Below, piece by piece: positions 1 to 24,253 of a DNA stretch of 32,000 nt. Each line of letters opens with the position of its first letter. Positions within the stretch are counted from its first letter, which is position 1. Source of the stretch: Alteromonas ponticola (GTDB taxonomy: Bacteria > Pseudomonadota > Gammaproteobacteria > Enterobacterales > Alteromonadaceae); assembly GCF_012911815.1 (NCBI RefSeq), contig NZ_JAATNW010000003.1, forward strand, positions 327,078 to 359,077, read 5' to 3'. The notes below the pieces were generated by a model. The model worked only from the letters and a program-made list of their open reading frames with translations, was not told where the DNA came from and made no database searches. Both the position numbers and the translations under genes were made by a program.

Positions 1-843
1 CTCGTGTCAAACCACTCTATGTTTGAGCACAAGCGAAAATCAATCAACTTTTCGTTAGGCGTAATGCAAGTCCGATTTATGTATGCTTTAGGCAAAGCTA
101 AACATAACTTTTCGAGCTGGAACAATGACTACGATCTTATTTTGTGCTTCGGTCCTTACCAAGCAGAAAGGCTGAAACAATGTTGTTCAGCCACCATTTT
201 TCAAATGGGATATCCTCGTTATGACGGGTACTTTACAGATATGCTCAATAAGGATGAGATAAAGCGAGAATTGGGCCTTGATGAAAGAAGGAAAACAATC
301 GTCTGGCTACCGACCTGGAAAGAGTTGTCTTCAATTGACAAATTTGCGCCTGCTATGTCGTTATTATCAACAAAATATAACGTAATTGTGAAAACCCATC
401 CCTTAGCAGCAGAAGAAGAACCTGAGCGAGTAAATAAACTAAAAGAATTTAAGTTTACCAAAGTTATTACTGAAATTTACGACAACTTGAACTTATATAC
501 GGTCTCAGACTGGGTAGTTGCAGATTATGGTGGGCCTGCTTTTGGTGCTATATACTTAGACAAGCCCTTGCTATTACTCAATATGCCAAACGCTGAGGAC
601 GACGCATTGACAGGAGAAGATTCACCCGACATTCTATTACGCAATCAAATTGTCAATATTGATGCTCAGCATTCTTGGCAGATTGAAAAGATTCTTTCAC
701 AAGAACAGGTTTGGCAAAAACAGGCCACAAGTCGCCAGGCTTTAAGACGACAACACTTCTATCCTAGTTATGGATTTAGTGCTGACCTTGCTGCTGTAGC
801 GATACAAAATGTTCAGCAGATATTAACCATGACGAAGGGGTGA
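1..843 (+). CDS. CDP-glycerol glycerophosphotransferase (TagB/TagF, Glyphos_transf) family protein, 5'-truncated by the window edge
   Basis: The frame is open to base 1, so the GTG at 4 is probably not the real start. Motifs typical of the TagF C-terminal half: GYPRYD, VWLPTWKE, KTHP and SDWVVADYGGPAFGAIYLDKPLLLL. The stop TGA at 841-843 overlaps the next ORF's GTG at 840. Confidence 0.55.
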   Translation, partial: LVSNHSMFEHKRKSINFSLGVMQVRFMYALGKAKHNFSSWNNDYDLILCFGPYQAERLKQCCSATIFQMGYPRYDGYFTDMLNKDEIKRELGLDERRKTIVWLPTWKELSSIDKFAPAMSLLSTKYNVIVKTHPLAAEEEPERVNKLKEFKFTKVITEIYDNLNLYTVSDWVVADYGGPAFGAIYLDKPLLLLNMPNAEDDALTGEDSPDILLRNQIVNIDAQHSWQIEKILSQEQVWQKQATSRQALRRQHFYPSYGFSADLAAVAIQNVQQILTMTKG

Positions 844-1376
844 TAATGGTAATTTGGTTAGTAGGTTTGTCTGGAGCAGGAAAAACAACAATCGGCCGAA
901 GGTTGTATCACTCCATGAAGACTATGCATCAACATACAGTGTTTATTGATGGTGACGAAATTAGAAGTATCTTTCGCCATGACAAGGGGGACAATGCTTA
1001 CAGCTTAGAGGGCAGAAAACTTAATGCTGAGCGTATCCAAGCGATGTGTGCCTGGTTAGAAAGTCAGGAAATAAATGTTGTATGCTGTATTTTGTCGGTG
1101 TTCAGTGAAATAACGCAACAGAATAGGCAAAAGTTTAAACAATACTTTGAGGTTTTTGTTGATACGCCCTTGCCTCTCCTAATTGAACAGGACAACAAGG
1201 GTTTATACAAGTCAGCCCTTAAAGGTGAAATCAATAATGTCGTAGGGGTAGATATAGAGTATAACCCACCTTGCGCCCCTGATTTAATTATAAAAAACAG
1301 CATGCAAAAGACAGATTTAAGTAATTATGTCGCCTCCATAATCAACGCCTTGAAAGAAACGTATGACTATAAGTAG
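840..1376 (+). CDS. Adenylylsulfate (APS) kinase-fold kinase; candidate CDP-amidate 3'-kinase (Cj1415-like)
   Basis: N-terminal P-loop VGLSGAGKTT followed by FIDGDEIR, the pattern and spacing of APS kinases, at about 178 aa. The start is either GTG 840 (GTGA overlap) or ATG 846, which lies 7 nt after a GAAGGGG Shine-Dalgarno. Confidence 0.75.
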   Translation: MIMVIWLVGLSGAGKTTIGRRLYHSMKTMHQHTVFIDGDEIRSIFRHDKGDNAYSLEGRKLNAERIQAMCAWLESQEINVVCCILSVFSEITQQNRQKFKQYFEVFVDTPLPLLIEQDNKGLYKSALKGEINNVVGVDIEYNPPCAPDLIIKNSMQKTDLSNYVASIINALKETYDYK

Positions 1377-1944
1377 TTACCCTTATGCAGCCGGAAACTT
1401 ATTAGAAAAGCCTCAAAACTATAGCTACAGTGGCTATTTTGCTCATTCATTTGTCCATGCATGGCGCAATCATAGGCTTAGTCAACTTGCTTTATTACCA
1501 GAAGCTAAGCAAATTGCACAATCGAATGGAAACTCTTTGACTACCACAGATACGCTAAGTCTACTGAATGCGATTTGCGAATTCGTTAAACACACTGATA
1601 ATTTTATCGAAGGCCCTCATAGAGAATGGTTAGCGCGTTTATTGAAAAAATTTGAAGTGACAAAGCGTGTTTATAGTGGTTATGACCTTTTTGCGCCTCA
1701 TAGACCAGTTCAGAATAGCTTGTACACCGATCTGGATTTATATATAAAACTAGCAGAATGTTTTATTTTAACCTTTAACAAATATGGTAAGCTTCAGTAC
1801 CTAAACGCTTTTTTAAAACTTCAAGATACCATTCTATCCCAATCTCAAAAACTTACCGAGATCCAACAATCGAACCTAGCTTGGCTTATAGAGAATGAAT
1901 TGGCAGTGTTGGAAGAATTAATGAAAAGTAAGGACTTGATATGA
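1363..1944 (+). CDS. Hypothetical protein (193 aa), no family recognised
   Basis: The ORF fits exactly between its neighbours, with a 14-nt overlap upstream and an ATGA overlap downstream at 1941-1944. Its composition looks helical. I could find no diagnostic motif. Confidence 0.5.
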   Translation: MTISSYPYAAGNLLEKPQNYSYSGYFAHSFVHAWRNHRLSQLALLPEAKQIAQSNGNSLTTTDTLSLLNAICEFVKHTDNFIEGPHREWLARLLKKFEVTKRVYSGYDLFAPHRPVQNSLYTDLDLYIKLAECFILTFNKYGKLQYLNAFLKLQDTILSQSQKLTEIQQSNLAWLIENELAVLEELMKSKDLI

Positions 1945-2675
1945 CGAAAAAGATGGTCCTACTCCTCGCCCACTCAGCCCGTTCAGTCGCCTACGTGCAG
2001 GCTTTGTCTAATGCGAAAATCAGCCCTTCTGCCGTGGTAGTATACGGAAACAATGACATTAAGCTAAGCACGAAGCGGGAACTGCAACATAACGATGGAG
2101 ATATCTTTTGCCCAGATTTATCCTTAAATCTTACGCAAAGCCTTGCTCTAACAGAATGGCCTGTATGGCACTGCGACTTGAGATCGCTGGATAACCCAGC
2201 ACTTTTAACAAAGTTAAAAGAATTAGCTCCGGACATCATTGTTTATTCTGGCTATGGCGGGCAAATTGTACCAAAGAGATTGCTTGATATTGCACCAACT
2301 TTGCACATCCACTCAGGTCTATTACCTGACTTTCCCGGAAGTACAACCATTTACTACCAAATGTTATCTCAAAAATGTTGTGGTGCCAGCGCGATTTTAC
2401 TAGACGAAACTATAGATACGGGGCCTGTAATAGCAAAGAAAACTTATCCTTCGCCTCCCAAACAACTGGACATCGATTATTTATATGACACGATGATCAG
2501 AGCTGACCTGTTGGTAGAAGTGCTAAGAAAACGTGACATATCGAATTTACATGATGACGCAATGATACAGTCATCGAATAGGACACCTTACTATATTATT
2601 CATCCTCTGCTAAAACATCTTGCGATTCTTTGGTCAGATCATGAAGCTGTAAAAGAAGGAAGTAAGGTTGACTGA
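1941..2675 (+). CDS. Formyltransferase-fold protein (Formyl_trans_N-like) with a non-canonical active-site motif
   Basis: LHIHSGLLPDFPG...LLDETIDTGPVI aligns to the FMT/GART motif INVHGSLLPRWRG...LDTGD. His124 and Asp159 are kept. The catalytic Asn position is His122 (cac, 2304-2306), and the Arg of PRWRG is Pro. Confidence 0.6.
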   Translation: MTKKMVLLLAHSARSVAYVQALSNAKISPSAVVVYGNNDIKLSTKRELQHNDGDIFCPDLSLNLTQSLALTEWPVWHCDLRSLDNPALLTKLKELAPDIIVYSGYGGQIVPKRLLDIAPTLHIHSGLLPDFPGSTTIYYQMLSQKCCGASAILLDETIDTGPVIAKKTYPSPPKQLDIDYLYDTMIRADLLVEVLRKRDISNLHDDAMIQSSNRTPYYIIHPLLKHLAILWSDHEAVKEGSKVD

Positions 2676-5052
2676 CATTCTATTTAAATTTGGTACTAAA
2701 GCTGAAACATTAGCCCGCTTACGCTCTAAATTGAAGATGTCCAGCGTACTCCCCTCTTATTTCTTTACCATTGATGAATGGAATGTAAAAAAAGAACAGA
2801 TCTTACAAGAAATTGTTGATTTTGGTGCCGCGCAGCCTCTAATTATTCGAAGCAGCTCACAGTATGAAGATGGCAAACAAGAATCGATGGCTGGCGCGTT
2901 TGAGAGTTGTTTAAATATCCCTTCTCAAGATAAAGCGCTACTCCTTAAGTCAATTGAAAATGTAATCTCCTCATATGGTGAGAATGGCCGAAGTAATGAC
3001 CAAGTGCTCATACAACCTATGTTAGACAATGTCGATATTTCTGGTGTTATCATGACCCATGATATGGAGCTAGGCGCGCCATATTATGTTGTAAACTATG
3101 ATGATGAAAGCGGCCTCACCGATACAATAACCGGAGGGGTGGGTATTCAAAAGACCGTCTTAATTTACCGTAAAACAGAATTAGAGTACATCCGTTCAAA
3201 ACGTATAAAAAAAGTGATTGAAGCTACCAAAGAACTCGAATCATTCTGCGGTAACCTTCCCTTAGATATAGAATTTGTTCTTAGTCAAGGCGGCACGGTT
3301 TATATTCTTCAAGTGCGTCAAATTAGCTTAGCTAACACTTGGCATCCAGTCACCGAGAGAAGAGTTGCAAGGAAGCTAGGCTACATACGCGAATTTATTG
3401 CACAAAGAAATAAACCCCGCTTAGGTATATATGGGCGTAAAACGTTACTGGGGGTCATGCCCGATTGGAACCCGGCAGAAATCATTGGTACAAGTCCTTC
3501 GCCTTTGGCAGCGTCATTATATCGTTTTCTCATCACTCGTGATGTGTGGCGCGAAGCGCGTCAACAAATGGGCTATTACAATCCACAAAATGAAGAGTTG
3601 ATGACCCTTATTGATCATCACCCATATATTGATGTGCGTAATAGTTTTAATTCTTTCCTTCCTGCCAAATTACCTGAGAAGATCAAGCATAAGTTGGTTA
3701 ATGCCTGGATTGATCGCTTAACCGCGAATCCCGAATTACATGATAAAGTTGAGTTTGCTGTTGCGCAAACCTGTGTAGATTTCGCCTTTGACCTCGATTA
3801 TGAGGAACGCTATTCCGGATTACTGGATAAAGTTGAGCTAGCAGAGTTTAGAATGCACCTTTGGCAACTTACAAAAGACTGCTTGCAACCTGGAGAGGGC
3901 AATAATTCTTTAACAAGCGCATTGGCTATGATTAATAAGTTAGAATCACTCGATGGCAGGCAGATGCTAAATGGTGAAACCGATAATCTTGAACGAGCTA
4001 CCCAGCTTTTATATCAGTGCCGTCAATTAGGAACCAAAGCGTTTTCAATTATCGCGCGTCATGCTTTTATTGCGGAAAGTTTCCTACACTCAGCTTCCAA
4101 ACTTAATGTTTTATCCAGCGCAAGAATACAAGAATTTAAAAGCTCGCTACAAACCATTACCTCTAATTTAACCAGTGATTATAATGCAGTTTGTACCGGC
4201 GAGCTCCCCGCTTCAACGTTTTTGCATCAATTCGGACATCTGCGACCAGGGACATATGACATCACTTCGTTGCGTTATGATGAATGGGTCGACTTGTTTA
4301 GTACCGTTTCCGGTGAATTGAAACCTATTTCCGAAAGCCGAGAGTTTCAGCTTACTCCAGAGGAAAAAAACGGTTTAAATAATTTACTGTCAAAAAACTT
4401 ATACGAAATTGATGCAGAACAACTTATCCAATATGCACGCACAGCTATAGTCAATAGAGAACATAGTAAATTTGTATTTACCAGAAGCTTATCAAACGCG
4501 CTGAGTGAACTCACGTTATGGGGAGCTGATGTTGGATTGGCGAAGGAAGATATTGCTTTTCTTGATATTGAGTCCATTCTCAACCTTAGGCTGAGCCCAG
4601 CGTTAGAAGATTTAGATCGAATAATGCTTGACCAGGCTGCGGAAACAAAGCGTAGTCTACAGGCGGCTAGATCACTAAAACTTAGCCATATAATTAGTGG
4701 AGTTGATGATGTATATGTAGTTCCTATACATCGAAGCATGCCAAATTTTATCACTCAATTCAGAGTCGAAGGTATGGTAATTTTGCTTAAACAGGATACG
4801 CCGGTTCATACAGATCTGGCTGGCTGCATCGTTTGTATCGAGAATGCCGATCCCGGCTATGACTGGATTTTCACTAAAAATATTGCCGCCTTGGTAACGA
4901 AGTTTGGCGGAGTAAACTCGCATATGGCAATAAGATGTGCTGAATTTGCTATTCCAGCCGCTATTGGATGTGGAGAGCAAGTTTTTAATCGTATCATCAG
5001 TAATGGACGCGCAATTCTAAATTGCGCAGAAAAAACCATAAAAAGTCTATAG
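2668..5052 (+). CDS. PEP-utilising / PPDK-like ATP-grasp enzyme with a C-terminal phosphohistidine swivel domain; candidate L-glutamine kinase (Cj1418-like)
   Basis: TTG start at 2668, preceded by AAGGAAGTAAGG. The N-terminal FGTKAETLARL and RSSSQYEDGKQESMAGAFESCLNI match the PPDK_N pattern (GGKA.nL, VRSSA.ED..SFAGQ.ET.LNV). The C-terminal GGVNSH752MAIRC is the PEP-utilizers phospho-His motif (His codon cat at 4921-4923). Confidence 0.75.
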   Translation: MTDILFKFGTKAETLARLRSKLKMSSVLPSYFFTIDEWNVKKEQILQEIVDFGAAQPLIIRSSSQYEDGKQESMAGAFESCLNIPSQDKALLLKSIENVISSYGENGRSNDQVLIQPMLDNVDISGVIMTHDMELGAPYYVVNYDDESGLTDTITGGVGIQKTVLIYRKTELEYIRSKRIKKVIEATKELESFCGNLPLDIEFVLSQGGTVYILQVRQISLANTWHPVTERRVARKLGYIREFIAQRNKPRLGIYGRKTLLGVMPDWNPAEIIGTSPSPLAASLYRFLITRDVWREARQQMGYYNPQNEELMTLIDHHPYIDVRNSFNSFLPAKLPEKIKHKLVNAWIDRLTANPELHDKVEFAVAQTCVDFAFDLDYEERYSGLLDKVELAEFRMHLWQLTKDCLQPGEGNNSLTSALAMINKLESLDGRQMLNGETDNLERATQLLYQCRQLGTKAFSIIARHAFIAESFLHSASKLNVLSSARIQEFKSSLQTITSNLTSDYNAVCTGELPASTFLHQFGHLRPGTYDITSLRYDEWVDLFSTVSGELKPISESREFQLTPEEKNGLNNLLSKNLYEIDAEQLIQYARTAIVNREHSKFVFTRSLSNALSELTLWGADVGLAKEDIAFLDIESILNLRLSPALEDLDRIMLDQAAETKRSLQAARSLKLSHIISGVDDVYVVPIHRSMPNFITQFRVEGMVILLKQDTPVHTDLAGCIVCIENADPGYDWIFTKNIAALVTKFGGVNSHMAIRCAEFAIPAAIGCGEQVFNRIISNGRAILNCAEKTIKSL

Positions 5053-5061
5053 GGATAAGCT

Positions 5062-5691
5062 GTGAGGAAAATTGGCATTACCCTCAGATCAAGCAATTCA
5101 ACGAAATATATCGAGTATAGAGATGCATTAGCTATAGATTGGTATACTTATCTTAAGAAATTGGGCTTTACCCATAATTGGATATTGTTACCTAATTTAG
5201 GAGCCGAGACTGTTGAATATGCCAGACTCCATAATGTCGAAGGATTGATCTTTAGTGGAGGCGAAAGCCTAGGCATGAATCCTCGGCGTGATAATTCAGA
5301 AATAACTCTGTTAAATTTCGCTATTGAACAGCAACTTCCCATTCTGGGTATTTGTCGAGGTCTGCAATTAATATATTCACAGCTAGGCGGAAAGCTAGTA
5401 GAAGGTAATACAAGTACAAAGCACGTTGCAACAAGACACTTAGTACAACTTTCGTCAGACCTACCTTTTGCATTCGGCGGTGAACGCTCCTTAGAAGTTA
5501 ACTCTTTTCATAGCCATTTACTCCCTCCATCGGATGCTCTCGTACAAGTAATGGCACAAGATGATGAAGGTTTCGTCGAAGGAATCATCGACGTACATAA
5601 AAAAATAGTAGGCATAATGTGGCACCCAGAAAGAGAATCTAATTGCTCTGACTTCGATAGAGCAATATTTAATTGGTTATTTAACGAATGA
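5062..5691 (+). CDS. Class I glutamine amidotransferase / peptidase C26-like hydrolase; candidate gamma-glutamyl-CDP-amidate hydrolase (Cj1417-like)
   Basis: GTG start. The nucleophile elbow is LGIC98RGLQL (tgt at 5353-5355), and the His/Glu pair sits in IMWHPERE, as in PuuD-type C26 hydrolases. The stop overlaps the next start (ATGA, 5688-5691). Confidence 0.75.
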   Translation: MRKIGITLRSSNSTKYIEYRDALAIDWYTYLKKLGFTHNWILLPNLGAETVEYARLHNVEGLIFSGGESLGMNPRRDNSEITLLNFAIEQQLPILGICRGLQLIYSQLGGKLVEGNTSTKHVATRHLVQLSSDLPFAFGGERSLEVNSFHSHLLPPSDALVQVMAQDDEGFVEGIIDVHKKIVGIMWHPERESNCSDFDRAIFNWLFNE

Positions 5692-6449
5692 GTAAAATGA
5701 AAGCTGTAATTTTAGTAGCAGGACGTGGCTCCCGTTTAGGCGAATTCACCGCTAATAAACCAAAACCCATGACGATTTTAGCTGGCACCCCCCTAATTGA
5801 ATGGCAGTTGCAAGCATTAAAACAAGCTGGAATTGAAGATATTCATTTAGTAGCTGGGTATCAAGCCGAAGCATTTAACAAATATCAATTGCCCACTTTC
5901 GTAAACGACAATTGGTTTAGTAGTAATATGGTGAGTAGTCTGCTTTGTGCCGATCCACTATTATCTGAACACGACACTATCGTAAGCTATGGGGATATTG
6001 CATATCATTCATCTATCATAGCAAAATTAAAAGCATCACCGTCAGGGCTAAGTATTACCAATGACAAATCATGGCTAGATTTGTGGAATTTGCGCTTTGA
6101 AAACCCATTAGATGATGCAGAGGAATTTAAATGTATTAATGGCCATCTACAAGCAATAGGTAAAAAGGCGACGAATTTGTCAGAAATTGAAGGTCAATAT
6201 ATGGGTTTGCTAAAAATTTCTGCCGAAAGCTGGAGAGAGATTAAAACGCATCTGTTATCCCTACCTTCTAAAGAACTGCAATCTAAAGACATGACATCTT
6301 TATTAAATGACTTAATAACGTCCGGTCATAATATAGCTACTGTTGACGTTAATGGTGGTTGGGTTGAAGTTGACCTCCCCAGTGACATTATCTGTTACGA
6401 AACTCAACTGAAGCTTCAATCAGATTGGGCTCACGATTGGCGAGAATAG
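5688..6449 (+). CDS. Nucleotidyltransferase (NTP_transferase, LicC-like); candidate CTP:phosphoglutamine cytidylyltransferase (Cj1416-like)
   Basis: The N-terminal KAVILVAGRGSRLGEFTANKPKPM is the G-x-G-x-R-L ... K-P-K signature of sugar/phospho-headgroup nucleotidyltransferases. Length is 253 aa. Confidence 0.75.
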   Translation: MSKMKAVILVAGRGSRLGEFTANKPKPMTILAGTPLIEWQLQALKQAGIEDIHLVAGYQAEAFNKYQLPTFVNDNWFSSNMVSSLLCADPLLSEHDTIVSYGDIAYHSSIIAKLKASPSGLSITNDKSWLDLWNLRFENPLDDAEEFKCINGHLQAIGKKATNLSEIEGQYMGLLKISAESWREIKTHLLSLPSKELQSKDMTSLLNDLITSGHNIATVDVNGGWVEVDLPSDIICYETQLKLQSDWAHDWRE

Positions 6450-6906: not shown

Positions 6907-7653
6907 ATGACCAAAAAAAAATTTAAAGAACTTTTTCGAAAAGCGGGTGATCCCGGGACTGACACTCACGAGCTAGACGAAATTATTGAATTGGGAAATA
7001 ATGAATTATGCGCTGTTGTTGCTTTGAATCCCAGTTGTGACAAATATCTTCTCGATAAACTTGCCTTAGTTAATTCAACTCACGTGAAAAATAATTTGGC
7101 TAAGCGATATTCAAGCTATCCAGATTTATATTCAATTAACGTTCGTGAAGTTGAAATAAGTGATGCTGAGTACATTTTTACGCTTCGTATGGATGATGTT
7201 TTTAACAGGTATATTTCAAAGGTCACCAATGATGTTAGAGCTCAAGAGGAGTATATCGAAAAATATTTACTTAATAATGCAGTCGAACGCACATCATTCT
7301 ATTTCATTCTGGAAAACAGATTGACTGGTGTTCGTTGTGGGACGGTAAGAATTTATAATTTCGACGGTGATGTATTTGAATGGGGAAGCTGGATATTAGA
7401 TGGTAATAAGACACGCTTTGCTGCAATGGAAACGGCCATATTAATTTATGAATTTGCCTTCAATGTCTTAGGTTTTAGTAGAAGTGAATTCGAGGTTAAT
7501 AAAGACAATAAAAAGGTAATTAGTTACCATCAAAAAAGTGGAGCAGAAATTATTGGAGAAGATGACGTAAACTTATATTTTCGTGTTTCAAAAGTAGTTG
7601 GATTAAATTTTGCTAAAAAACTTAGGGAAAAACTTGAGACAAAGCATTCATAA
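6907..7653 (+). CDS. GNAT-family N-acetyltransferase (RimJ/RimL-like) with a roughly 75-aa N-terminal extension
   Basis: AGGAAA Shine-Dalgarno upstream of the ATG. The C-terminal 170 aa have a GNAT layout: INVREVEISDAEYIFTLR..., ...GTVRIYNF..., ...RFAAMETAILIYEFAFNVLGFSRSEFEV..., ...YHQKSGAEIIGE. The N-terminus has an LRV/HEAT-like NP....LL.KLA motif. Confidence 0.6.
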   Translation: MTKKKFKELFRKAGDPGTDTHELDEIIELGNNELCAVVALNPSCDKYLLDKLALVNSTHVKNNLAKRYSSYPDLYSINVREVEISDAEYIFTLRMDDVFNRYISKVTNDVRAQEEYIEKYLLNNAVERTSFYFILENRLTGVRCGTVRIYNFDGDVFEWGSWILDGNKTRFAAMETAILIYEFAFNVLGFSRSEFEVNKDNKKVISYHQKSGAEIIGEDDVNLYFRVSKVVGLNFAKKLREKLETKHS

Positions 7654-7898: not shown

Positions 7899-8303
7899 TT
7901 AATTTTCCTCAACCATTTTCAAAAAATCATCATAACTTCTAATATAGTCAGATTCGTCATAGATTTGGTCTGCCAAAACCATTAATACGCAATCTTCAGT
8001 AAAATCAAACATTTCACGCCAAATAAAAGACTCAATAAGCAGCCCCTGTGCAGGATGGTTCAGGGTAATTTCTATTTTTTCCTTACCATCATCCAGTAAG
8101 AACTTGCATGAACCGCGAACAGCTATAGCGACCTGTTTGAGCGCTTTGTGAGCATGATAGCCTCTACGAACACCTTTTCCAGTATTAAACATGTAATAAA
8201 CCCGCTTAATGTTAAATGGTACATTCGCATTTTCTTCTAGAGCAATTAAAGATCCACGGTCATCACCACAACTTTTTAGCTGTACCAGTTTAATGTCCAT
8301 CAT
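7899..8303 (-). CDS. WxcM/FdtA-like sugar 3,4-ketoisomerase (cupin)
   Basis: DDRGSLIALEE...VPFNIKRVYYMFN...RRGYHAHKALKQVAIAVRGSC...LLDDG...ESFIWREM...DCVLMVLADQIYDESDYIRSYDDF matches the FdtA family pattern (D.RG.L..E..iPF.ikRvyy...RG.HAH+.l.Q...G...W...vllvlaS..Yd..DYI.dy). Confidence 0.75.
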   Translation of the reverse strand: MMDIKLVQLKSCGDDRGSLIALEENANVPFNIKRVYYMFNTGKGVRRGYHAHKALKQVAIAVRGSCKFLLDDGKEKIEITLNHPAQGLLIESFIWREMFDFTEDCVLMVLADQIYDESDYIRSYDDFLKMVEEN

Positions 8304-9855
8304 CTTTCTCCGTGGTAAGATTAAGTGAATCTCTTAGCCACAAATTCACATCATCGATATTAAGTTCGTAACTTTTACTATAAAGGTTCTCATGATCGCT
8401 TACTCCGGCTCTATATGTGATATAAATAAGTTGAACTCCTACAATATATGCCAGATTCGAAAACGTTGATGCGTTCCCCCACTCCTCTGCCATCCAGCAT
8501 AAGGCCTTAGCGCCTTTCTTTGCGAATAAAATGTTTGTCCAAGCTGCTCCTGTCGGTCCAACGATGATGTCGGCATTACTAAAAACAGTCGCCTGCTCAA
8601 TGATGGTCATATTTTCAGGATTAACTTTCTTAAAACCATAACGGCTCAGGTTTTCAAAAACTTCATCTTGGTTATAACATCGATGTTTCATTGAAGGGGC
8701 TAAAAAAACTCGTTTGATTTTTGGTACATCACTCCTGGGCAAAGAATTCAATACGAGATTTCTTAAATAGTTTAAACTGTCATCTCGGTAATAAATATAT
8801 TCAGGTGGTGACCAAGCCGCCCCCTTTATACGAGGACAACACCTATTTGGAGAATTAAGTATAATTAAATCTTTTACTTTTACTGTTTCTGTCGACGAAA
8901 TTTTAATAAATTCATTTGGCAAATTAAACAATGAGATTAACTCTTTAATTGACTCGTACTTAAATGCCATTTTCGAAATGATTAACGGGTAAGAAGCAAA
9001 TTTTTCATTTAGTTCTTTCAAGTATTCTAACTGAGATAAAATCTCGATTATCCAGTGATAATAATTGGAGTCATAATAGCCATTAATGAGAATGCCTCTT
9101 TCAAAAATGCGCTGATGGCCCGTCTTAATTAGAGCTTGTTTATCTTCAAAGTGGTGAAGTACATGCCCTTTATTGTACTTCGCAAACTTCATGCTAATTG
9201 TATGCATTTTTTCGATGACGAGTGATTTATTACCTATTGCAAAGGCTCTGGAAATCGCACAAATCTGGGCATCGCTAAATTGGTAAGCTGCAACTTCAGG
9301 TATCGTTATTTCTACAAATTTTTGTGAGCGATCAATAAAGTTGGGGCCGGCTATGTGGTGCTGTTTAGCTTGACGAAATATTTGGATTTTATTTGACTGA
9401 CAATCGTCAAGATTTTCTGTAGGAATTATATCGTAACCAAAAAATTGGAAAAACGGACGATATAGTTTAGAGATACTTTGGGGTAATCTACAGATTAGAT
9501 TACGACTGAAATTCTGACAAGATTTGCGCCACTGTTTTAAGAGTGGTTTTTTACTGACAACTGAACGATAGTAGATAATGGGAATAGTTTTAAAATGCTT
9601 ATTCGTTTTAAGATTGTGGTAGATTTCTTCAAAAAAATCACTTGCAATAAGAATAAGGTCGATATCAAGTGTTGAGATAGCTGACGGTGCTAATACGGGA
9701 GTTGTACCTATGAAAGTCCCTTGTTTCGTTGTATCGTTATCCATATAAGCGACAATTTCATACTTTGACCTCACAGTTGGCACGAAATTTCTAGCCGCAG
9801 ATCCAGTTCCAAAGATCACCACTCTTTCTTTTCTGCCACGTTTCAAAATTTTCAT
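8290..9855 (-). CDS. Glycosyltransferase family 61 (DUF563)-like protein with an N-terminal Rossmann-like module
   Basis: Central DSNYYHWIIEILSQLEYLKE (the DUF563 hallmark yyH..E.l..L) and C-terminal ADIIVGPTGAAWTNILFAKKGAKALCW (the HGAgltN.lF equivalent). The N-terminus VVIFGTGSAARNF...MDNDTTKQGTFIGTTPVL resembles PglD/NeuD-type N-terminal nucleotide-binding modules. There is a 14-nt overlap with the downstream FdtA-like gene. Confidence 0.6.
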   Translation of the reverse strand: MKILKRGRKERVVIFGTGSAARNFVPTVRSKYEIVAYMDNDTTKQGTFIGTTPVLAPSAISTLDIDLILIASDFFEEIYHNLKTNKHFKTIPIIYYRSVVSKKPLLKQWRKSCQNFSRNLICRLPQSISKLYRPFFQFFGYDIIPTENLDDCQSNKIQIFRQAKQHHIAGPNFIDRSQKFVEITIPEVAAYQFSDAQICAISRAFAIGNKSLVIEKMHTISMKFAKYNKGHVLHHFEDKQALIKTGHQRIFERGILINGYYDSNYYHWIIEILSQLEYLKELNEKFASYPLIISKMAFKYESIKELISLFNLPNEFIKISSTETVKVKDLIILNSPNRCCPRIKGAAWSPPEYIYYRDDSLNYLRNLVLNSLPRSDVPKIKRVFLAPSMKHRCYNQDEVFENLSRYGFKKVNPENMTIIEQATVFSNADIIVGPTGAAWTNILFAKKGAKALCWMAEEWGNASTFSNLAYIVGVQLIYITYRAGVSDHENLYSKSYELNIDDVNLWLRDSLNLTTEKDDGH

Positions 9856-10096: not shown

Positions 10097-11224
10097 ATGA
10101 AGGTTCCTTTTTTAAATTTAAGAGCGATTAATGCAAGGGATGAGCATGCGATAATCAGTGCGTGCGAAAGAGTTATAAAAAGTGGCTGGTATGTGAACAG
10201 TGAAGAGGTGTCCAATTTTGAAAGTAAATTTTCTAACTATTGCGGCACAAAATATTGCATCGGTGTAGCCAATGGGTTGGACGCTCTGAAATTGACACTG
10301 GCCGCATGGAAAATTCTCGGGAAATTAAAGGATGGTGATGAAGTGCTTGTGCCCGGAAATACATTTATAGCCACCGTCCTCGCCGTAATCGATACGGGTT
10401 TAAATCCAGTATTTGTTGAACCGGATCCTGAAACATTCCTTATTTCAAATTCGTCACTTGAAAGTGCCATAACCAGTAGATGCAAAGCGATTATTCCAGT
10501 TCATTTGTATGGGCAATTAGTAGATTTATCAGCTTTACGAGGTGTGATTGAGAAGCACGAATTATTGGTACTCGAAGATTCTGCACAAGCCCATGGCGCT
10601 TCTTTGATGGGAAAGCGCGCGGGCAACCTGGGGCATGCAGCTGCATTTAGTTTTTACCCTGGCAAAAACCTTGGCGCATTAGGCGATGGCGGCGCAGTGA
10701 CAACTAACGATGCTGAGCTGGCTAGTTTAATAAAAGCATTAGCAAACTATGGTTCGGAAGATAAGTACGTACATTCATTTGTGGGGTACAATAGTCGACT
10801 AGACGCCATTCAAGCCGCAATTCTCAACGTGAAACTAACTCGTCTGGATAATGATATCGAATTGCGCCGAAAGATAGTGCACAGATATCTTAACGAAATC
10901 AGTAACCCTCATATTAGTTTACCTTCTATAAATGATACACAGAGTCACGTCTGGCATTTATTTGTTGTTAAAACGGAATTCAGAAAAGCTCTGCAAGCGT
11001 GGCTAACTGCTCATGATGTCCAAACGTTGGTTCATTATCCAATCGCTCCTCATAAACAGGAGGCTTTGTCACAATTCAGCCACACGATACTACCAGTGAC
11101 GGAAAATTTACAGTCAGTAGTTCTCAGTTTGCCGGTTGATCCCACATTAGATAATGAGCAGGTTAGCTACGTTATCGATGTGTGTAATAAGTTTAAACTG
11201 AATGCCGAAAACCACCCACTTTAG
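10097..11224 (+). CDS. DegT/DnrJ/EryC1-family PLP-dependent sugar aminotransferase (FdtB/QdtB/WecE-like)
   Basis: The N-terminus [48 protein letters not shown] is the classic family opening. Also present: EDSAQAHGA and [17 protein letters not shown] (PLP-lysine motif). Confidence 0.85.
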
Positions 11225-11300: not shown

Positions 11301-12218
11301 TTAGTCCAAAGGATAAGTTTTTGGACTCGCTTCTTTTATGTCATTGAATTCAACTTTGTTCAAGTTTGCGTAGTCTGTCAGCTGCATATTTTGTTTAGGC
11401 GTTTTCCAATCACCATACTGATATGTCAGGTAAGCCTCGTATTCAAAAGGAACGGTGATTTTACTACCATTCCAATTGAGTTTCTCACATGATAAAAAGT
11501 GCTTTTCAGGGCTGTGCCACATTCCTAAGCTCGGCATATGATGTGCGATACCATCCTTAAACTCTCTTAAGGCAAATGAAGTAGAAAAATTAGCAATCTC
11601 ACCCGTTTGATCTGTGAACAAAAGTAGTAGCCCTAAAGTCTCGCCCATTCTATTTTTGAGCTCATCAATACGCCATTCAATGTTATATTCTGAGTGTGCA
11701 ATGAAATCCTTTAACACACTAACAAGTTCAGGTACGCAATCTTTGTCAATTGTAAAATCAATATCGTCGTCCCACGGGATAATATCACCATCGCGGACGA
11801 TGCCAAGTAGAGTACCGAAGTCGACCATTAAAGGAATTTCTTTACTCGCTGACAATTGGCAAAGCAATGTGATGATATGCCGGCCGAGAATTAATGTGTT
11901 TGCATCCCTAAATGGTTCAACCTTGAGCGCTTTTAACGTTTTCTTTTTGGGAATTAGTACTTTGGTCTTATCGATACCCAAACTTTCCGTGAGTTGCGTA
12001 TACACTTCCATAGACCATTGGGTAGTGATAACGATTTGATCAAATTCAAGTTTTAACACTGACTCTGGTCCCATTACGTTTAAATCTCGAATGGTCGTGC
12101 CAACTTTCGTCGGATCATTATCCAGAATACCGATAAATTCCCGCTCGTTATCTTGAACACTATCAAGGTATTGGCATGCGCCAGCACTTGCTCCGAATAA
12201 GAGCGTTTTAATGGTCAT
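11301..12218 (-). CDS. LicD-family phospho-headgroup transferase with an N-terminal Rossmann-like module
   Basis: DFGTLLGIVRDGDIIPWDDDIDFTI is the LicD/fukutin nucleotidyltransferase-fold signature (LLG.vR.g..IPWDDDiD). The N-terminus LLFGASAGACQYL...LDNDPTKVGTTIRDLNVMGP is homologous to the N-terminus of the 8290-9855 protein. Confidence 0.7.
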   Translation of the reverse strand: MTIKTLLFGASAGACQYLDSVQDNEREFIGILDNDPTKVGTTIRDLNVMGPESVLKLEFDQIVITTQWSMEVYTQLTESLGIDKTKVLIPKKKTLKALKVEPFRDANTLILGRHIITLLCQLSASKEIPLMVDFGTLLGIVRDGDIIPWDDDIDFTIDKDCVPELVSVLKDFIAHSEYNIEWRIDELKNRMGETLGLLLLFTDQTGEIANFSTSFALREFKDGIAHHMPSLGMWHSPEKHFLSCEKLNWNGSKITVPFEYEAYLTYQYGDWKTPKQNMQLTDYANLNKVEFNDIKEASPKTYPLD

Positions 12219-12219
12219 A

Positions 12220-14444: not shown

Positions 14445-15745
14445 TATTTACCACCCGGAATAAGCTCAAGTATTTGCTTAATTGGCATCATATTTTCGTC
14501 TACTTCAGCCGAGCGCCCATGAGTTAGGATGCTTTGCGCTGTATTCATCATAGCTGGATAAGCGCTACGTAGAAGCTGATTTGCATAAATGACTACATTT
14601 ACGCCTCGTGCCTCTAAATCTTTTTCGTAGACTTGGTTATAACTTGAGGGAACTGCTACGAGCGTTTTTCGATTTGAAAGCTGATTGTAGCGATCACAGA
14701 ATTCGAAAATTTCATCGGGTGATTTCTGCCGACTATGGATCATAATGCCATCAGCACCTGCTTCGAGATAAGCTTGCGCACGCTTCATCGCATCATCGAC
14801 TCCTTGATCAAGAATCAGACTCTCAATACGCGCAATGATCATAAAATCCTGGGTCGCCTGAGCTGTTTTGCCTGCCTGAATTTTATGACAGAAGTTTTCG
14901 ATAGAATCCTGCGTTTGGGCCACGTCGGTACCGAACAAGGAGTTCTTTTTCAAACCTGTCTTGTCTTCAATGATAACCGCCGATACACCGAGGCGCTCCA
15001 GCGTCTTAACTGTAAATACGAAGTGTTCGGTCTTACCACCGGTATCACCATCATAAATAATAGGCTTTGTGGTAACTTCAAGCACTTCGTTCAGTGTAGA
15101 CATGCGCGACGTAACATCGACCGCTTCGATATCGGGCTTTCCCTTGGCAGTAGAGTCTGTCAGGCTGCTTCCCCACATCCCATCAAACTCTCTGGGGCCG
15201 TTCTCTGTCTCTATGCGAGTATTTTCGATAATTAACCCAGAGAGTGCATTATGGATATCCAAAAAACGGACTAAGGGTTTAGCGTTAAGAATTCGACGCA
15301 ATGACTTCAATCGCACCTCTGGGGTGGTGCCAATCTCTTTCATTGCATTATGTATTTGGGTTGAAGAGATGCCGTGGGTATAGGGAACTTCGACTAATTT
15401 TCCATCCCATTGAGCCAGGCAATCGATCACTCGTTGACGGGTTTTCTTTTGAATGCCCGATGTCCAGTCATCACCATGCACAACGAAGTCAGGCTTTAAG
15501 GCCTCTAAGTTTGGCACATAATCCAGCGTTTCCTGAGGGATCACATATTCCACCCCTTTAATATTTTCAATTACCTCTTTGCGTTGCTCAAAAGTCATAA
15601 ATGGAACACGTTTATAGCTGGCAATGGCTTTGTCAGTTAACAAACCCACTGTCACTTCACCTAATTCCGTTGCACGCTTAATAATATTCAGGTGGCCAGG
15701 ATGGACTAAATCAGCGCTCATTCCGAGATATACTTTTTTCGTCAT
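14444..15745 (-). CDS. ppm: Bifunctional cytidylyltransferase (HIGH-type, TagD/ECT-like) / phosphoenolpyruvate mutase fusion
   Basis: Residues 1-135 carry [18 protein letters not shown] (the H-x-G-H cytidylyltransferase motif). Residues about 150-433 are isocitrate-lyase/PEP-mutase fold and carry the Ppm-specific E-D-K-x5-N-S motif. This is [10 protein letters not shown], residues 260-269, nt 14939-14968, checked codon by codon. Confidence 0.9.
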
Positions 15746-15783
15746 TTTCTCTACTTCTAATATGATTTTTGTTGCTCAATATG

Positions 15784-24251: not shown

Positions 24252-24253
24252 GG

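What the first reader, a model, noticed from the sequence alone, without database searches (positions are those of the whole stretch)
1..6449. Full Campylobacter-type phosphoramidate (P-N) donor pathway without its methyltransferases, beside a flagellar glycosylation island
**Seen in sequence.** One tightly coupled plus-strand operon combines four otherwise unrelated folds:
- A PPDK/PEP-synthase-like enzyme of 794 aa with the phospho-His motif GGVNSH752MAIR.
- A class I GATase/C26 hydrolase with GIC98RG and WHPE.
- A LicC-type nucleotidyltransferase of 253 aa.
- An APS-kinase-fold protein with P-loop GLSGAGKTT.

**Established knowledge** (Raushel-lab work on C. jejuni capsule O-methyl phosphoramidate, recalled from memory). 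Exactly these four folds are Cj1418 (L-glutamine kinase), Cj1417 (gamma-glutamyl-CDP-amidate hydrolase), Cj1416 (CTP:phosphoglutamine cytidylyltransferase) and Cj1415 (CDP-amidate 3'-kinase). Together they make 3'-phospho-CDP-amidate.

**Inference.** This organism makes an activated phosphoramidate.
- The two SAM methyltransferases of the Campylobacter locus (Cj1419/Cj1420) have no counterpart in the window.
- A 193-aa orphan, a non-canonical formyltransferase-fold protein and a TagF-like transferase occupy the operon instead.
- The final group may therefore be an unmethylated or differently tailored phosphoramidate.
- Its target may be the flagellin/Pse glycan rather than a capsule.
Basis: partly seen in the sequence, partly recalled or inferred. 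Interest (0 to 1): 0.88.

Follow-up and report, generated by a model that had tools for sequence, protein, structure and literature searches.

The report
Phosphoramidate-donor operon in flagellar glycosylation island
An Alteromonas flagellin-glycosylation island carries a seven-gene operon predicted to make and attach a rare phosphorus-nitrogen (phosphoramidate) sugar decoration so far studied mainly in Campylobacter capsules, and relatives of this operon turn out to be present in hundreds of bacterial species.

Summary

Four genes have the folds of the Campylobacter Cj1418/1417/1416/1415 pathway, which makes 3'-phospho-cytidine diphosphoramidate. They stay together in 44 of 52 related loci from more than ten phyla. 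The kinase-like proteins fail the curated PEP-synthase and CysC models. The GATase's best curated match is the Cj1417 model, though below its cut-off. I could not obtain any C. jejuni sequence, so no direct reciprocal comparison was made.

The other three genes are conserved partners, not fillers:
- The TagF-like gene is the likely phosphoramidate transferase, by analogy with FtaD of C. difficile.
- The 193-aa helical protein and the formyltransferase-fold protein always follow the kinase and are fused to each other in many genomes. The latter has an invariant His-x-His in place of Asn-x-His. Their reaction is unknown.

No methyltransferase lies in the window or in any TagF-type locus. The operon sits inside a flagellin glycosylation island that also encodes a phosphonate pathway.

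This is a new variant of a known pathway, and all functions are inferred.

The parts
1..843 (+). TagF-like phosphotransferase: the C-terminal 279-281 residues, with the 5' end beyond the window. It is the predicted transferase of the P-N group onto a glycan hydroxyl.
   Evidence: - Pfam Glyphos_transf, 56.7 bits against a cut-off of 22.1.
- Full-length relatives are 335 aa.
- Best PDB matches are the TagF-like capsule polymerase Cps3D and TagF. The His of KTHPL aligns with TagF His584, and the GYPRYD motif is conserved.
- Its stop overlaps the kinase start by 4 nt.
840..1376 (+). APS-kinase-fold P-loop kinase, the predicted cytidine diphosphoramidate 3'-kinase (Cj1415-like).
   Evidence: - Pfam APS_kinase, 113.8 bits.
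- NF004041 scores 169.5, above its cut-off of 127. The CysC models TIGR00455 (120.5 against 138.7) and NF003013 (99.6 against 163) are not reached.
- The P-loop is at residue 9.
- It lies near the glutamine-kinase homologue in 49 of 52 loci.
1363..1944 (+). 193-aa all-helical protein of unknown function, an obligate partner of the formyltransferase-fold protein.
   Evidence: - No Pfam or NCBIfam family.
- 983 cluster representatives at E <= 0.001.
- AF2 model: pLDDT 80.9, six helices. Foldseek against the PDB gave no significant match.
- It always lies between the kinase and the FT gene.
- It is fused to FT in L010, L011, L018, L020 and L073, and to the kinase in L062. Many further fusion proteins turned up.
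1941..2675 (+). Formyltransferase-fold protein with a non-canonical His-x-His active-site motif. It is predicted to tailor the nucleotide-bound phosphoramidate; the reaction is unknown.
   Evidence: - Pfam Formyl_trans_N, 55.8 bits.
- Alignment to Fmt 3tqq puts His122 where the catalytic Asn sits. His124 and Asp159 are kept.
- H122, H124 and D159 are invariant in 33 family members from many phyla.
- The AF2 model of a natural fusion (pLDDT 92.7, pTM 0.91) is closest to the ArnA N-formyltransferase domain, Fmt, WbkC and FdtF.
2668..5052 (+). 794-aa PPDK/PEP-synthase-like phosphohistidine enzyme, the predicted L-glutamine kinase (Cj1418-like).
   Evidence: - NF004508 scores 937 bits against a cut-off of 501, covering profile positions 9-788 of 789. 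PEP-synthase models score 58 bits or less.
- Pfam PPDK_N plus PEP-utilizers.
- His752 is invariant in 20 homologues, and the NSHM motif is at least 95% conserved in 82.
- 100% identical to an Alteromonas sp. MYP5 protein annotated 'pyruvate, phosphate dikinase'.
5062..5691 (+). Class I glutamine amidotransferase / C26-type hydrolase, the predicted gamma-glutamyl-CDP-amidate hydrolase (Cj1417-like).
   Evidence: - Best NCBIfam match is NF045546, 87.1 bits over residues 4-197 against profile positions 3-187 of 198. This is below the cut-off of 250. The next best family scores 52 bits.
- Cys98 and WHPE are present.
- Ten homologues from other loci all have NF045546 as their top hit, at 93-109 bits.
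5688..6449 (+). LicC-type nucleotidyltransferase, the predicted CTP:phosphoglutamine cytidylyltransferase (Cj1416-like).
   Evidence: - Pfam NTP_transf_3 and NTP_transferase.
- Best PDB match is LicC 1jyk, E = 3e-11.
- It lies next to the GATase in 49 of 52 loci.
6907..7653 (+). GNAT acyltransferase with an N-terminal LRV repeat; a possible N-acyltransferase of the 3-amino sugar.
   Evidence: Pfam Acetyltransf_3 and LRV_2. It occupies the place of the hexapeptide acetyltransferase seen in relatives.
7899..8303 (-). FdtA-type 3,4-ketoisomerase, part of the dTDP-3-amino-3,6-dideoxyhexose branch.
   Evidence: Pfam FdtA, 170 bits. In the related loci FdtA is found only where the TagF-like gene is present: 12 loci with FdtA, none of them without TagF.
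8290..9855 (-). GT61-family glycosyltransferase, the likely transferase of the Fdt sugar.
   Evidence: Pfam Glyco_transf_61. Homologues occur in 16 related loci, nearly all of the TagF type.
10097..11224 (+). DegT/PseC-family sugar aminotransferase (FdtB-like).
   Evidence: NCBIfam PseC-like match of 202 bits, below its cut-off. The DegT cluster is present in 33 related loci.
11301..31974 (-). The rest of the flagellin glycosylation island. In order along the window:
- LicD.
- Fe-ADH.
- Phosphonopyruvate decarboxylase.
- Cytidylyltransferase-PEP mutase fusion.
- LuxC, LuxE, acyl ligase, SDR and ACP.
- PseH, PseG and PseI.
- A 323-aa gene with no family (23280-24251).
- PseF, PseC and PseB.
- Maf.
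- A 128-aa gene with no family (30546-30932).
- FliS.
- The FliD C-terminus.
   Evidence: NCBIfam and Pfam hits, several above equivalog cut-offs: PseB 551, PseC 522, PseI 499, PseF 322, PEP mutase 410 and Ppd 451 bits.

Best explanation
Bases 1-6449 are a translationally coupled seven-gene operon inside the polar-flagellin glycosylation island of an Alteromonas (A. ponticola / sp. MYP5). I read it as a donor pathway plus a transferase.

**Donor core (inferred from homology and synteny)**
1. The 794-aa phosphohistidine enzyme phosphorylates the amide N of L-glutamine.
2. The LicC-type enzyme adds CMP from CTP to give CDP-L-glutamine.
3. The GATase-fold hydrolase removes glutamate to leave cytidine diphosphoramidate.
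4. The APS-kinase-fold enzyme phosphorylates its 3'-OH.

**Tailoring (inferred, weakest step).** The 193-aa helical protein and the His-x-His formyltransferase-fold protein work as one two-part enzyme on this nucleotide-bound amidate. My best guess is a folate-dependent N-formylation or a related modification of the P-NH2 group.

**Transfer (inferred by analogy).** The TagF-like protein moves the P-N-containing phosphoryl group from the CDP-linked donor onto a sugar hydroxyl of the flagellin glycan. The acceptor is most probably the 3-acylamino-3,6-dideoxyhexose made by the neighbouring FdtA, aminotransferase, GNAT and GT61 genes.

With no methyltransferase present, the final group is probably not O-methylated.
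For: **Family assignments**
- NF004508, 937 bits (cut-off 501); NF045546 as best hit for the GATase; NF004041, 169.5 bits (cut-off 127); Pfam domains.
- Catalytic His752, Cys98, WHPE and the P-loop are present and conserved.

**Synteny**
- At least 599 matches in species-representative genomes. The best 80 loci come from more than ten phyla.
- All four core genes are together in 44 of 52 loci with enough flank.
- All ten GATases tested have the Cj1417 model as top hit.

**Pathway chemistry.** Cj1415-Cj1418 make CDP-phosphoramidate 3'-phosphate (PMC11800397).

**Transferase analogy**
- FtaD/CD0244 is TagF-like. It transfers a substituted phosphate from a CDP-linked donor onto flagellin GlcNAc (bioRxiv 10.64898/2026.02.12.704994 and PMC10714395).
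- The window protein keeps the His that aligns with TagF His584, and the GYPRYD motif.
- Other lineages place CDP-alcohol phosphotransferases or other phosphotransferases in the same position.

**Helical protein and FT as part of the module**
- The order kinase, helical protein, FT is invariant.
- Fusions exist between the helical protein and FT, and between the kinase and the helical protein.
- P. chlororaphis carries the seven genes alone, with no sugar genes nearby.
- Separate canonical two-domain formyltransferases sit next to FdtA/DegT in L005, L009 and L011.
- H122, H124 and D159 are invariant.
- The nearest structures are nucleotide-sugar N-formyltransferases.

**Flagellar context**
- Window.
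- Relatives with flagellin, Maf or Flg genes.
- FdtA occurs only in TagF-type loci. GT61-like homologues occur almost only in those loci.
Against: - No C. jejuni protein sequence could be obtained, so homology to Cj1415-Cj1418 rests on curated models and synteny.
- NF045546 is matched at 87 bits, far below its 250-bit equivalog cut-off. NF004508 is an unnamed model whose membership I could not inspect.
- TagF enzymes normally use CDP donors without a 3'-phosphate.
- In A. veronii and S. putrefaciens an unrelated ~315-aa protein replaces the TagF-like gene.
- The canonical catalytic Asn of formyltransferases is missing, so formyl transfer is uncertain.
- No phosphoramidate has been reported on any flagellin in the literature I could search.
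- P. chlororaphis has the cassette outside any flagellar locus, so the target need not be flagellin everywhere.
- No experiment supports any step in this organism.
Confidence: 0.72

Rival explanations
1. The pathway is as described, but the P-N group goes onto lipopolysaccharide or a capsule rather than flagellin. The operon merely abuts the flagellar island.
For: - Unmethylated phosphoramide is chemically known on the LPS core of Shewanella MR-4 and of Xanthomonas campestris (PMC3210612 and PMC8042644).
- In P. chlororaphis the cassette is not near flagellar genes.
- Only a minority of related loci show flagellar genes within 10 kb.
- Many loci carry nonulosonic-acid genes that could serve either LPS or flagella.
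Against: - In the window the operon is contiguous with Maf, Pse, FliS and FliD genes.
- In the closest relatives it lies between flagellin or Maf and the LicD/Ppm genes.
- The S. putrefaciens copy lies beside Maf and the flgT/O/N/M/A genes.
- No kps, wzx/wzy or lipid A-core genes are in the window.
Confidence: 0.17
2. The formyltransferase-fold protein and its helical partner are an ordinary sugar N-formyltransferase. On this reading they act on the dTDP-3-amino-3,6-dideoxyhexose, or on a nonulosonic acid, and have nothing to do with the phosphoramidate.
For: - The nearest structures are nucleotide-sugar N-formyltransferases: ArnA, WbkC, FdtF and the dTDP-Qui3N enzymes.
- FdtA and an aminotransferase are in the window.
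- Many loci with this protein also have amino-sugar genes.
Against: - The protein always follows the kinase, and the helical partner is fused to the kinase in L062.
- It is present in the P. chlororaphis cassette, which has no sugar-nucleotide genes nearby.
- It is also present in L041, which has none of the recurrent amino-sugar gene families next to the module.
- Separate canonical two-domain formyltransferases sit next to FdtA/DegT in L005, L009 and L011.
- The catalytic Asn is invariably His.
Confidence: 0.2
3. The TagF-like enzyme uses CDP-L-glutamine directly, as FtaD uses CDP-threonine. The glycan would then carry a phospho-glutamine, and the GATase would have another role.
For: FtaD transfers a phospho-amino acid from a CDP-amino acid donor. 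The first two enzymes would suffice to make CDP-glutamine.
Against: - The GATase with the Cj1417-type best match is kept in 46 of 52 loci, next to the cytidylyltransferase.
- The 3'-kinase is kept in 49 of 52 loci.
- In C. jejuni CDP-glutamine is hydrolysed, not transferred.
Confidence: 0.05
4. The genes are ordinary metabolism: a PEP synthase or PPDK, a CysC APS kinase and a PuuD-type amidase that happen to be neighbours.
For: Public annotation calls them pyruvate phosphate dikinase or PEP-utilizing enzyme, adenylyl-sulfate kinase, and gamma-glutamyl-GABA hydrolase family.
Against: - PEP-synthase, PPDK and rifampicin-phosphotransferase models score 58 bits or less, against cut-offs of 456 to 1700. 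CysC models are below their cut-offs. PuuD scores 40 bits against 266.
- No cysDN genes are in the window.
- The four genes are syntenic across phyla.
Confidence: 0.01

Closest known systems
Campylobacter jejuni O-methyl phosphoramidate (MeOPN) donor pathway. It comprises Cj1418 (L-glutamine kinase), Cj1416 (CTP:phosphoglutamine cytidylyltransferase), Cj1417 (gamma-glutamyl-CDP-amidate hydrolase) and Cj1415 (CDP-amidate 3'-kinase).
   Same: - The same four folds in one operon, with the catalytic His, the Cys-His-Glu-type GATase motifs and the P-loop.
- The GATase's best curated match is the Cj1417 model.
- Many related loci share the gene order kinase-like enzyme, GATase, cytidylyltransferase, kinase. 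That this is also the C. jejuni order is from memory.
   Different: - It sits in a flagellin glycosylation island, not a kps capsule locus.
- No SAM methyltransferase genes are present.
- There is a TagF-like transferase. The fold of Cj1421/Cj1422 could not be checked here.
- Two extra conserved genes are present, the helical protein and the His-x-His formyltransferase-fold protein. No such genes are described for the Campylobacter locus in the papers read; the locus itself could not be inspected.
- The GATase scores only 87 of the 250 bits needed for equivalog status.
Clostridioides difficile Type A flagellin post-glycosylation modification, FtaABCD (CD0241-CD0244), and the related P. aeruginosa PA1088-PA1091 cluster.
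   Same: - A flagellar-locus operon.
- A LicC-type cytidylyltransferase makes a CDP-linked donor.
- An enzyme tailors that donor.
- A TagF-like phosphotransferase puts the substituted phosphate on a flagellin-linked sugar.
   Different: - The group transferred there is N-methyl-phosphothreonine, a P-O diester. Here a P-N group derived from glutamine is predicted.
- The donor there has no 3'-phosphate.
- Tailoring there is done by a SAM methyltransferase, not a formyltransferase-fold enzyme.
Nucleotide-sugar N-formyltransferases: ArnA N-domain, WbkC, FdtF, VioF.
   Same: Formyl_trans_N fold, conserved His and Asp, an SLLP-like loop, and substrates that are amines attached to a nucleotide.
   Different: - The catalytic Asn is replaced by an invariant His.
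- There is no C-terminal OB-type domain.
- An obligate 190-aa helical partner is present, often fused at the N-terminus.
- The gene is tied to the APS-kinase-fold gene, not to sugar genes.
MeOPN-like gene cluster noted on archaeal Borg elements (bioRxiv 10.1101/2024.11.05.622173).
   Same: Homologues of the glutamine kinase, hydrolase and cytidylyltransferase occur outside Campylobacter, next to a PEP mutase and phosphonate genes.
   Different: That assignment rests on structure matches only, in an archaeal extrachromosomal element. It has no flagellar context, and no TagF-like or helical-plus-formyltransferase genes are described.

Membership tests
Cj1415-Cj1418-type phosphoramidate donor pathway | A PPDK/PEP-synthase-like enzyme with a swivelling phosphohistidine domain (Cj1418 type). 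| tested here: met
   PPDK_N plus PEP-utilizers. His752 in GGVNSHMAIR is invariant.
Cj1415-Cj1418-type phosphoramidate donor pathway | Sequence membership in the same family as Cj1418 itself. | tested here: inconclusive
   - NF004508 scores 937 bits against a cut-off of 501. The model is named 'hypothetical protein' and its seed members could not be inspected.
- No C. jejuni sequence was obtainable.
Cj1415-Cj1418-type phosphoramidate donor pathway | A GATase-fold hydrolase that matches the curated Cj1417 model NF045546. | tested here: inconclusive
   It is the best and a full-length match, at 87 bits, but below the 250-bit equivalog cut-off. Ten co-located homologues behave the same way, at 93-109 bits.
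Cj1415-Cj1418-type phosphoramidate donor pathway | A LicC-type cytidylyltransferase and an APS-kinase-fold kinase in the same operon, conserved across taxa. | tested here: met
   All four genes are together in 44 of 52 loci.
Cj1415-Cj1418-type phosphoramidate donor pathway | The enzyme activities: Gln N-phosphorylation, CDP-Gln formation, hydrolysis to CDP-amidate, and 3'-phosphorylation. | not testable with these tools
   These need purified proteins with 31P NMR and LC-MS.
Campylobacter MeOPN capsule locus as a whole | SAM methyltransferase genes (Cj1419/Cj1420) next to the donor genes. | tested here: not met
   - No methyltransferase domain is found in any of the 34 window ORFs scanned.
- None is found in the 14 TagF-type loci.
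- Sequence upstream of base 1 was not seen.
Campylobacter MeOPN capsule locus as a whole | Location in a kps-type capsule locus. | tested here: not met
   The window is a flagellin glycosylation island with Maf, Pse, FliS and FliD genes.
TagF-like CDP-X:acceptor phosphotransferases (TagF, TarF, FtaD) | A Glyphos_transf catalytic domain with the conserved His (TagF His584) and the GYPR-x-D motif. | tested here: met
   - Pfam, 56.7 bits against a cut-off of 22.1.
- Alignment to 3l7j.
- KxHPL and GyPRxD are conserved in 19 family members.
- The His444 equivalent could not be placed with confidence.
TagF-like CDP-X:acceptor phosphotransferases (TagF, TarF, FtaD) | Use of a CDP-linked donor made by a neighbouring cytidylyltransferase. 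| not testable with these tools
   Gene adjacency only.
N10-formyl-THF-dependent formyltransferases (PurN, Fmt, ArnA) | The Formyl_trans_N fold. | tested here: met
   Pfam, 55.8 bits. Foldseek against ArnA, E = 1e-12.
N10-formyl-THF-dependent formyltransferases (PurN, Fmt, ArnA) | The catalytic Asn-His-Asp triad. | tested here: not met
   The Asn position is His122, invariant in 33 sequences. His124 and Asp159 are kept.
APS kinase CysC | Reaches the curated CysC model scores and lies with cysDN or cysH. | tested here: not met
   TIGR00455 scores 120.5, below 138.7, and NF003013 scores 99.6, below 163. No sulfate-assimilation genes are in the window.
PEP synthase / PPDK / rifampicin phosphotransferase | Reaches the curated model scores. 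| tested here: not met
   The best such model scores 58 bits, and cut-offs for these models range from 456 to 1700. The PDB matches cover only the ~85-residue phosphohistidine domain.

The most novel reading that the evidence does not exclude
- Phosphoramidate decoration of surface glycans is widespread rather than a Campylobacter speciality. The gene family matched at least 599 places in species-representative genomes, and the best 80 loci span more than ten phyla.
- In Alteromonas and its relatives the group would be placed on flagellin glycans, which would be the first P-N modification of a flagellin.
- The conserved, often fused pair of helical protein and His-x-His formyltransferase-fold protein would be a new enzyme. 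It would convert nucleotide-bound phosphoramidate into an N-formyl, or otherwise N-modified, phosphoramidate before transfer. No such glycan substituent has been described.
Probability: 0.25. Interest if true: 0.85.

Novelty: new variant of a known kind. Interest (0 to 1): 0.64.

Why it matters
- **Distribution.** Reviews state that the phosphoramidate glycan modification and its glutamine kinase are confined to Campylobacter (PMC6429109 and PMC9561416). Here the same four-gene logic matches at least 599 places in species-representative genomes, and the 80 loci examined come from many phyla. Everywhere it is annotated as PEP-utilizing enzyme, APS kinase and the like.
- **Testability.** If the prediction holds, P-N chemistry is a common way to decorate bacterial surfaces. 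The window offers a tractable case, because flagellin is easy to purify and to analyse by MS and 31P NMR.
- **Unknown steps.** The comparison singles out two conserved proteins of unknown function tied to the pathway. It also shows a set of alternative transferases: TagF-like, CDP-alcohol phosphotransferase, sulfatase-type, and a 315-aa unknown family. These could explain the undefined last steps of the pathway, which are unresolved in Campylobacter too.
- **Phosphonate neighbour.** The same island also encodes a phosphonate (P-C) branch.
- **Biology.** In Campylobacter this group is a phage receptor (reference title cited in PMC9561416). From memory, it also affects immune recognition, so the modification may matter for both here too.

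Tried and rejected
1. **Getting C. jejuni Cj1415-Cj1422 sequences for a reciprocal comparison.**
   - The PDB holds none of the four.
   - The Raushel author manuscripts are not held.
   - The protein search lists only the top 120 hits, all at least 48% identical.
   - Ten GATases from other loci were all equally far from the Cj1417 model, so no stepping-stone query existed.
   - I considered an AT-biased DNA pattern scan of metagenomes and dropped it: the chance of success was low and contig identity could not be verified.
2. **Looking up the window's own contig.** Exact-protein look-ups for the 791-aa and 253-aa proteins were not on record, so the sequence upstream of base 1 stayed unseen.
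3. **Idea that the orphan and formyltransferase-like protein replace the methyltransferases.** Rejected, because they coexist with a methyltransferase in L013, L025, L041, L044, L059 and L067.
4. **Idea that the 408-aa protein alternating with them is a GNAT N-acetyltransferase.** It rested on a weak PDB hit (E = 0.016). I rejected it on reading the sequence, which has GDS..., GVGNYG... and GGHFS motifs and an N-terminal membrane helix, and looks like an SGNH-type protein. Profile comparison showed no relation to the orphan, FT or TagF.
6. **The apparent 99.9% profile match between the orphan and FT families.** This was an artefact of fused proteins in the FT alignment. Domain tables resolved it.
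7. **Literature.** Searches for a phosphoramidate on flagellin or O-polysaccharides found only Campylobacter papers or synthetic chemistry. Searches for the NCBIfam and PRK model names found nothing.

Full report
**What is in the sequence**

Bases 1-6449 carry seven plus-strand genes with overlapping or nearly abutting ends:
- 1-843
- 840-1376
- 1363-1944
- 1941-2675
- 2668-5052
- 5062-5691
- 5688-6449

A consensus scan found no more promoter-like or terminator-like sites than shuffled sequence gives. The first gene runs off the window start; full-length relatives are 335 aa.

A script confirmed the quoted motifs: GGVNSHMAIR with His752, GICRG with Cys98, WHPE at residue 187, and the P-loop GLSGAGKTT at residue 9.

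The 794-aa protein is 100% identical to a protein of Alteromonas sp. MYP5 annotated 'pyruvate, phosphate dikinase'. The 193-aa protein is identical to a hypothetical protein of Alteromonas ponticola.

**Family assignments**

- **794-aa protein.** It has PPDK_N and PEP-utilizers domains.
  - It scores 937 bits over the whole length of NCBIfam NF004508/PRK05849, whose cut-off is 501.
  - Every PEP-synthase, PPDK or rifampicin-phosphotransferase model scores 58 bits or less, against cut-offs of 456 to 1700.
  - PDB sequence matches cover only the ~85-residue phosphohistidine domain.
- **209-aa GATase.** Its best NCBIfam match is NF045546, the model for gamma-glutamyl-CDP-amidate hydrolase (Cj1417).
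  - The score is 87 bits over the full length.
  - GMP synthase subunit A scores 52 bits and PuuD 40 bits.
  - The score is well below the model's 250-bit equivalog cut-off.
- **178-aa kinase.** It passes the subfamily model NF004041 (169.5 bits against 127). It fails the CysC models TIGR00455 and NF003013.
- **253-aa protein.** It is a LicC-type nucleotidyltransferase.
- **Sulfate genes.** The window holds no cysDN or other sulfate-assimilation genes.

Established knowledge, checked in a held paper: Cj1415-Cj1418 together make CDP-phosphoramidate 3'-phosphate from glutamine, ATP and CTP (PMC11800397).

**Limitation**

I could not obtain any C. jejuni sequence.
- None of the four proteins is in the PDB.
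- The relevant manuscripts are not held.
- The single genome scan kept only the best 80 loci.
- The afdb50 library was unavailable.

The link to the Campylobacter enzymes therefore rests on curated models plus synteny, not on a direct reciprocal comparison. Ten GATases taken from unrelated loci all have NF045546 as their top hit, at 93-109 bits. So the model, built on the Campylobacter enzyme, is about equally distant from every member tested.

**Comparative genomics**

The best 80 loci are full-length at 37-53% identity. They come from these groups:
- Pseudomonadota
- Desulfovibrio-type lineages
- Verrucomicrobiota
- Planctomycetota
- Omnitrophota
- Chloroflexi-type lineages (Dehalococcoidia, Anaerolinea)
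- Fibrobacterota
- Peregrinibacteria
- Myxococcota
- Aliifodinibius

I mapped the window's proteins onto 83 loci. Among the 52 loci with at least 4.5 kb on both sides:

| Gene near the glutamine-kinase homologue | Loci (of 52) |
|---|---|
| GATase | 46 |
| Cytidylyltransferase | 49 |
| Kinase | 49 |
| All four together | 44 |

This is far beyond chance adjacency and marks one conserved pathway.

The loci fall into types:

| Type | Gene order | Notes |
|---|---|---|
| Window type | TagF-like, kinase, helical protein, FT, glutamine kinase, GATase, cytidylyltransferase | See the taxa listed below the table |
| Second type | glutamine kinase, GATase, cytidylyltransferase, methyltransferase, kinase | Desulfovibrio and others |
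| Other types | kinase followed by helical protein plus FT, or by a 408-aa membrane protein | Often with a second methyltransferase family, nonulosonic-acid genes, and a CDP-alcohol phosphotransferase or sulfatase-type phosphotransferase |

The window type occurs in:
- Alteromonas relatives
- Pseudomonas
- Aeromonas sanarellii
- a Piscirickettsiaceae MAG
- Methylotenera
- Curvibacter
- Sedimenticola
- Zoogloea
- Castellaniella
- Rubricella
- an Anaerolinea MAG

Further points on methyltransferases and the Fdt genes:
- None of the 14 TagF-type loci has a methyltransferase within 7 kb.
- FdtA is found in 12 loci, all of them TagF-type.
- GT61-like glycosyltransferases track the same loci.

**The three 'extra' genes**

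*TagF-like protein*
- It has the Glyphos_transf domain.
- Its KTHPL His aligns with TagF His584.
- It has a conserved GYPRYD motif.
- The closest functional precedent is FtaD (CD0244) of C. difficile. This TagF-like enzyme has been shown to move N-methyl-phosphothreonine from a CDP-linked donor onto flagellin GlcNAc, after the donor has been tailored by a methyltransferase.
- Different phosphotransferase families take the same position in other lineages. This fits a constant donor pathway combined with acceptor-specific transferases.

*193-aa protein*
- It belongs to a large unnamed family of 983 cluster representatives.
- It is all-helical (AF2 pLDDT 80.9) and has no informative structural match.

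*244-aa protein*
- It has the formyltransferase N-domain fold. The catalytic Asn is replaced by His, while the His and Asp are kept.
- H122, H124 and D159 are invariant in 33 members from many phyla.

*The pair*
- The two genes always follow the kinase.
- They are fused to each other in L010, L011, L018, L020 and L073 and in many proteins found.
- The helical protein is fused to the kinase in L062.
- A natural fusion gives a confident compact model (pLDDT 92.7, pTM 0.91).
- The FT domain of that model is closest to nucleotide-sugar N-formyltransferases such as ArnA, WbkC and FdtF.
- Pseudomonas chlororaphis carries the seven genes alone between housekeeping genes.
- Canonical two-domain formyltransferases sit separately next to FdtA/DegT in three loci.

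I conclude that the pair belongs to the P-N module and probably acts on the nucleotide-bound amidate. Its reaction is unknown. N-formylation is my best guess, at roughly one in four.

**Context in the window**

The rest of the window is a flagellin glycosylation island. It encodes:
- the FliD C-terminus and FliS;
- a 1155-aa Maf;
- PseB, PseC, PseF, PseI, PseG and PseH, most above equivalog cut-offs;
- an acyl module: ACP, SDR, acyl ligase, LuxE and LuxC;
- a phosphonate branch: a cytidylyltransferase-PEP mutase fusion, phosphonopyruvate decarboxylase, an Fe-alcohol dehydrogenase and LicD;
- a 3-amino-3,6-dideoxyhexose branch: FdtA, an aminotransferase, a GNAT and GT61.

In the closest relatives the operon lies between flagellin or Maf and the LicD/Ppm genes. 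In Shewanella putrefaciens it lies beside Maf and the flgT/O/N/M/A genes.

**How it compares with what is known**

It works like the Campylobacter MeOPN donor pathway joined to an FtaD-like flagellin post-glycosylation step. It differs in four ways:
- its context;
- the lack of methyltransferases;
- the transferase family;
- the two extra conserved proteins.

Reviews describe the modification and its kinase as Campylobacter-specific. A Borg preprint has already noted a similar cluster in an archaeal element. Unmethylated phosphoramide is chemically known on Shewanella MR-4 and Xanthomonas LPS, and the reviews read name no genes for it. Cj1419/Cj1420 have no assigned function.

I therefore file this as a new variant of a known kind. 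All functions are inferred. The decisive tests are enzymology of the 794-aa protein and MS plus 31P NMR of flagellin.

Noticed in passing
window 11301-15745 (- strand): A complete phosphonate-decoration branch lies in the same island:
- a cytidylyltransferase-PEP mutase fusion (410 bits on TIGR02320);
- phosphonopyruvate decarboxylase (451 bits);
- a PsrA-like Fe-alcohol dehydrogenase;
- a LicD-family transferase.

The island thus encodes both P-C and P-N chemistry.
   Followed up: partly
window 15926-20635 (- strand): An acyl-activation set sits next to PseH. It comprises LuxC-like reductase, LuxE-like acyl-protein synthetase, an AMP-forming ligase, a FabG-like SDR, and a 79-aa ACP-like ORF (20396-20635, with a WDST motif). 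It suggests an acyl or aldehyde-derived substituent on the nonulosonic acid.
   Followed up: no
L010:8637-9977, L011, L018, L020, L073; L062:6702-7784; P0282-P0399: Natural gene fusions exist. The helical protein is fused to the formyltransferase-fold protein (~445 aa) in Methylotenera, Castellaniella, Rubricella, Roseovarius, Halomonas and Paraglaciecola. The kinase is fused to the helical protein (360 aa) in a Magnetococcales MAG.
   Followed up: yes
L085:7228-8172 and L086:7230-8186: In Aeromonas veronii and Shewanella putrefaciens the slot upstream of the kinase holds an unrelated ~315-aa protein. The two copies are 46% identical to each other. They have no Pfam or NCBIfam hit and no match to the TagF-like profile. 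This may be another transferase family.
   Followed up: partly
L048:9051-9830, L054:16357-17133, L063:5201-6958, L044:16480-17712, L001:15525-16508: In other lineages the module is followed by CDP-alcohol phosphotransferases, a sulfatase/EptA-like protein or sulfotransferase-fold proteins. These are candidate alternative transferases for a 3'-phospho-CDP-linked donor.
   Followed up: partly
L084:7120-13788 (Pseudomonas chlororaphis CP027718): The same seven genes form a stand-alone cassette between the amtB/P-II genes and a Mg-chelatase/ComM-like gene. No glycan or flagellar genes are nearby.
   Followed up: no
L087 (Vibrio alfacsensis plasmid NZ_CP140104.1): This plasmid-borne variant has a 995-aa protein with an extra N-terminal nucleotidyltransferase-like domain fused to the glutamine-kinase homologue. 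It is followed by the GATase, the cytidylyltransferase and a different TagF-family gene. There is no APS-kinase-fold gene, and the set lies next to cysD-cysN and a SLC13 permease. Family members occur on 14 plasmids in PLSDB.
   Followed up: partly
L074:13345-14571 and eight other loci: A 403-431-aa membrane-anchored protein with SGNH-like motifs (GDS, GVGNYG, GGHFS) alternates with the helical-plus-formyltransferase pair after the kinase. It is usually followed by a methyltransferase, and it has no family hit.
   Followed up: partly
window 6001-10000: G+C content drops to 0.33-0.37 across the GNAT, FdtA and GT61 genes. The operon is at about 0.40 and the Pse region at 0.45-0.48, which suggests a mosaic origin for the island.
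   Followed up: no
window 27079-30546, 23280-24251 and 30546-30932 (- strand): - The Maf protein is unusually long (1155 aa), with two matched stretches of the Maf N-domain.
- The 323-aa gene between PseF and PseI has no convincing family, only a weak heptosyltransferase-like hit.
- The 128-aa gene next to FliS also has no family.
   Followed up: no
window 8290-9855 and 11301-12218; L001-L003, L085, L086: In relatives, an N-terminal domain recorded as C2185-like_N (PF22674) is shared by the island's GT61, LicD, a methyltransferase and a GT2. It may be a common module of flagellin-glycan-modifying enzymes.
   Followed up: no
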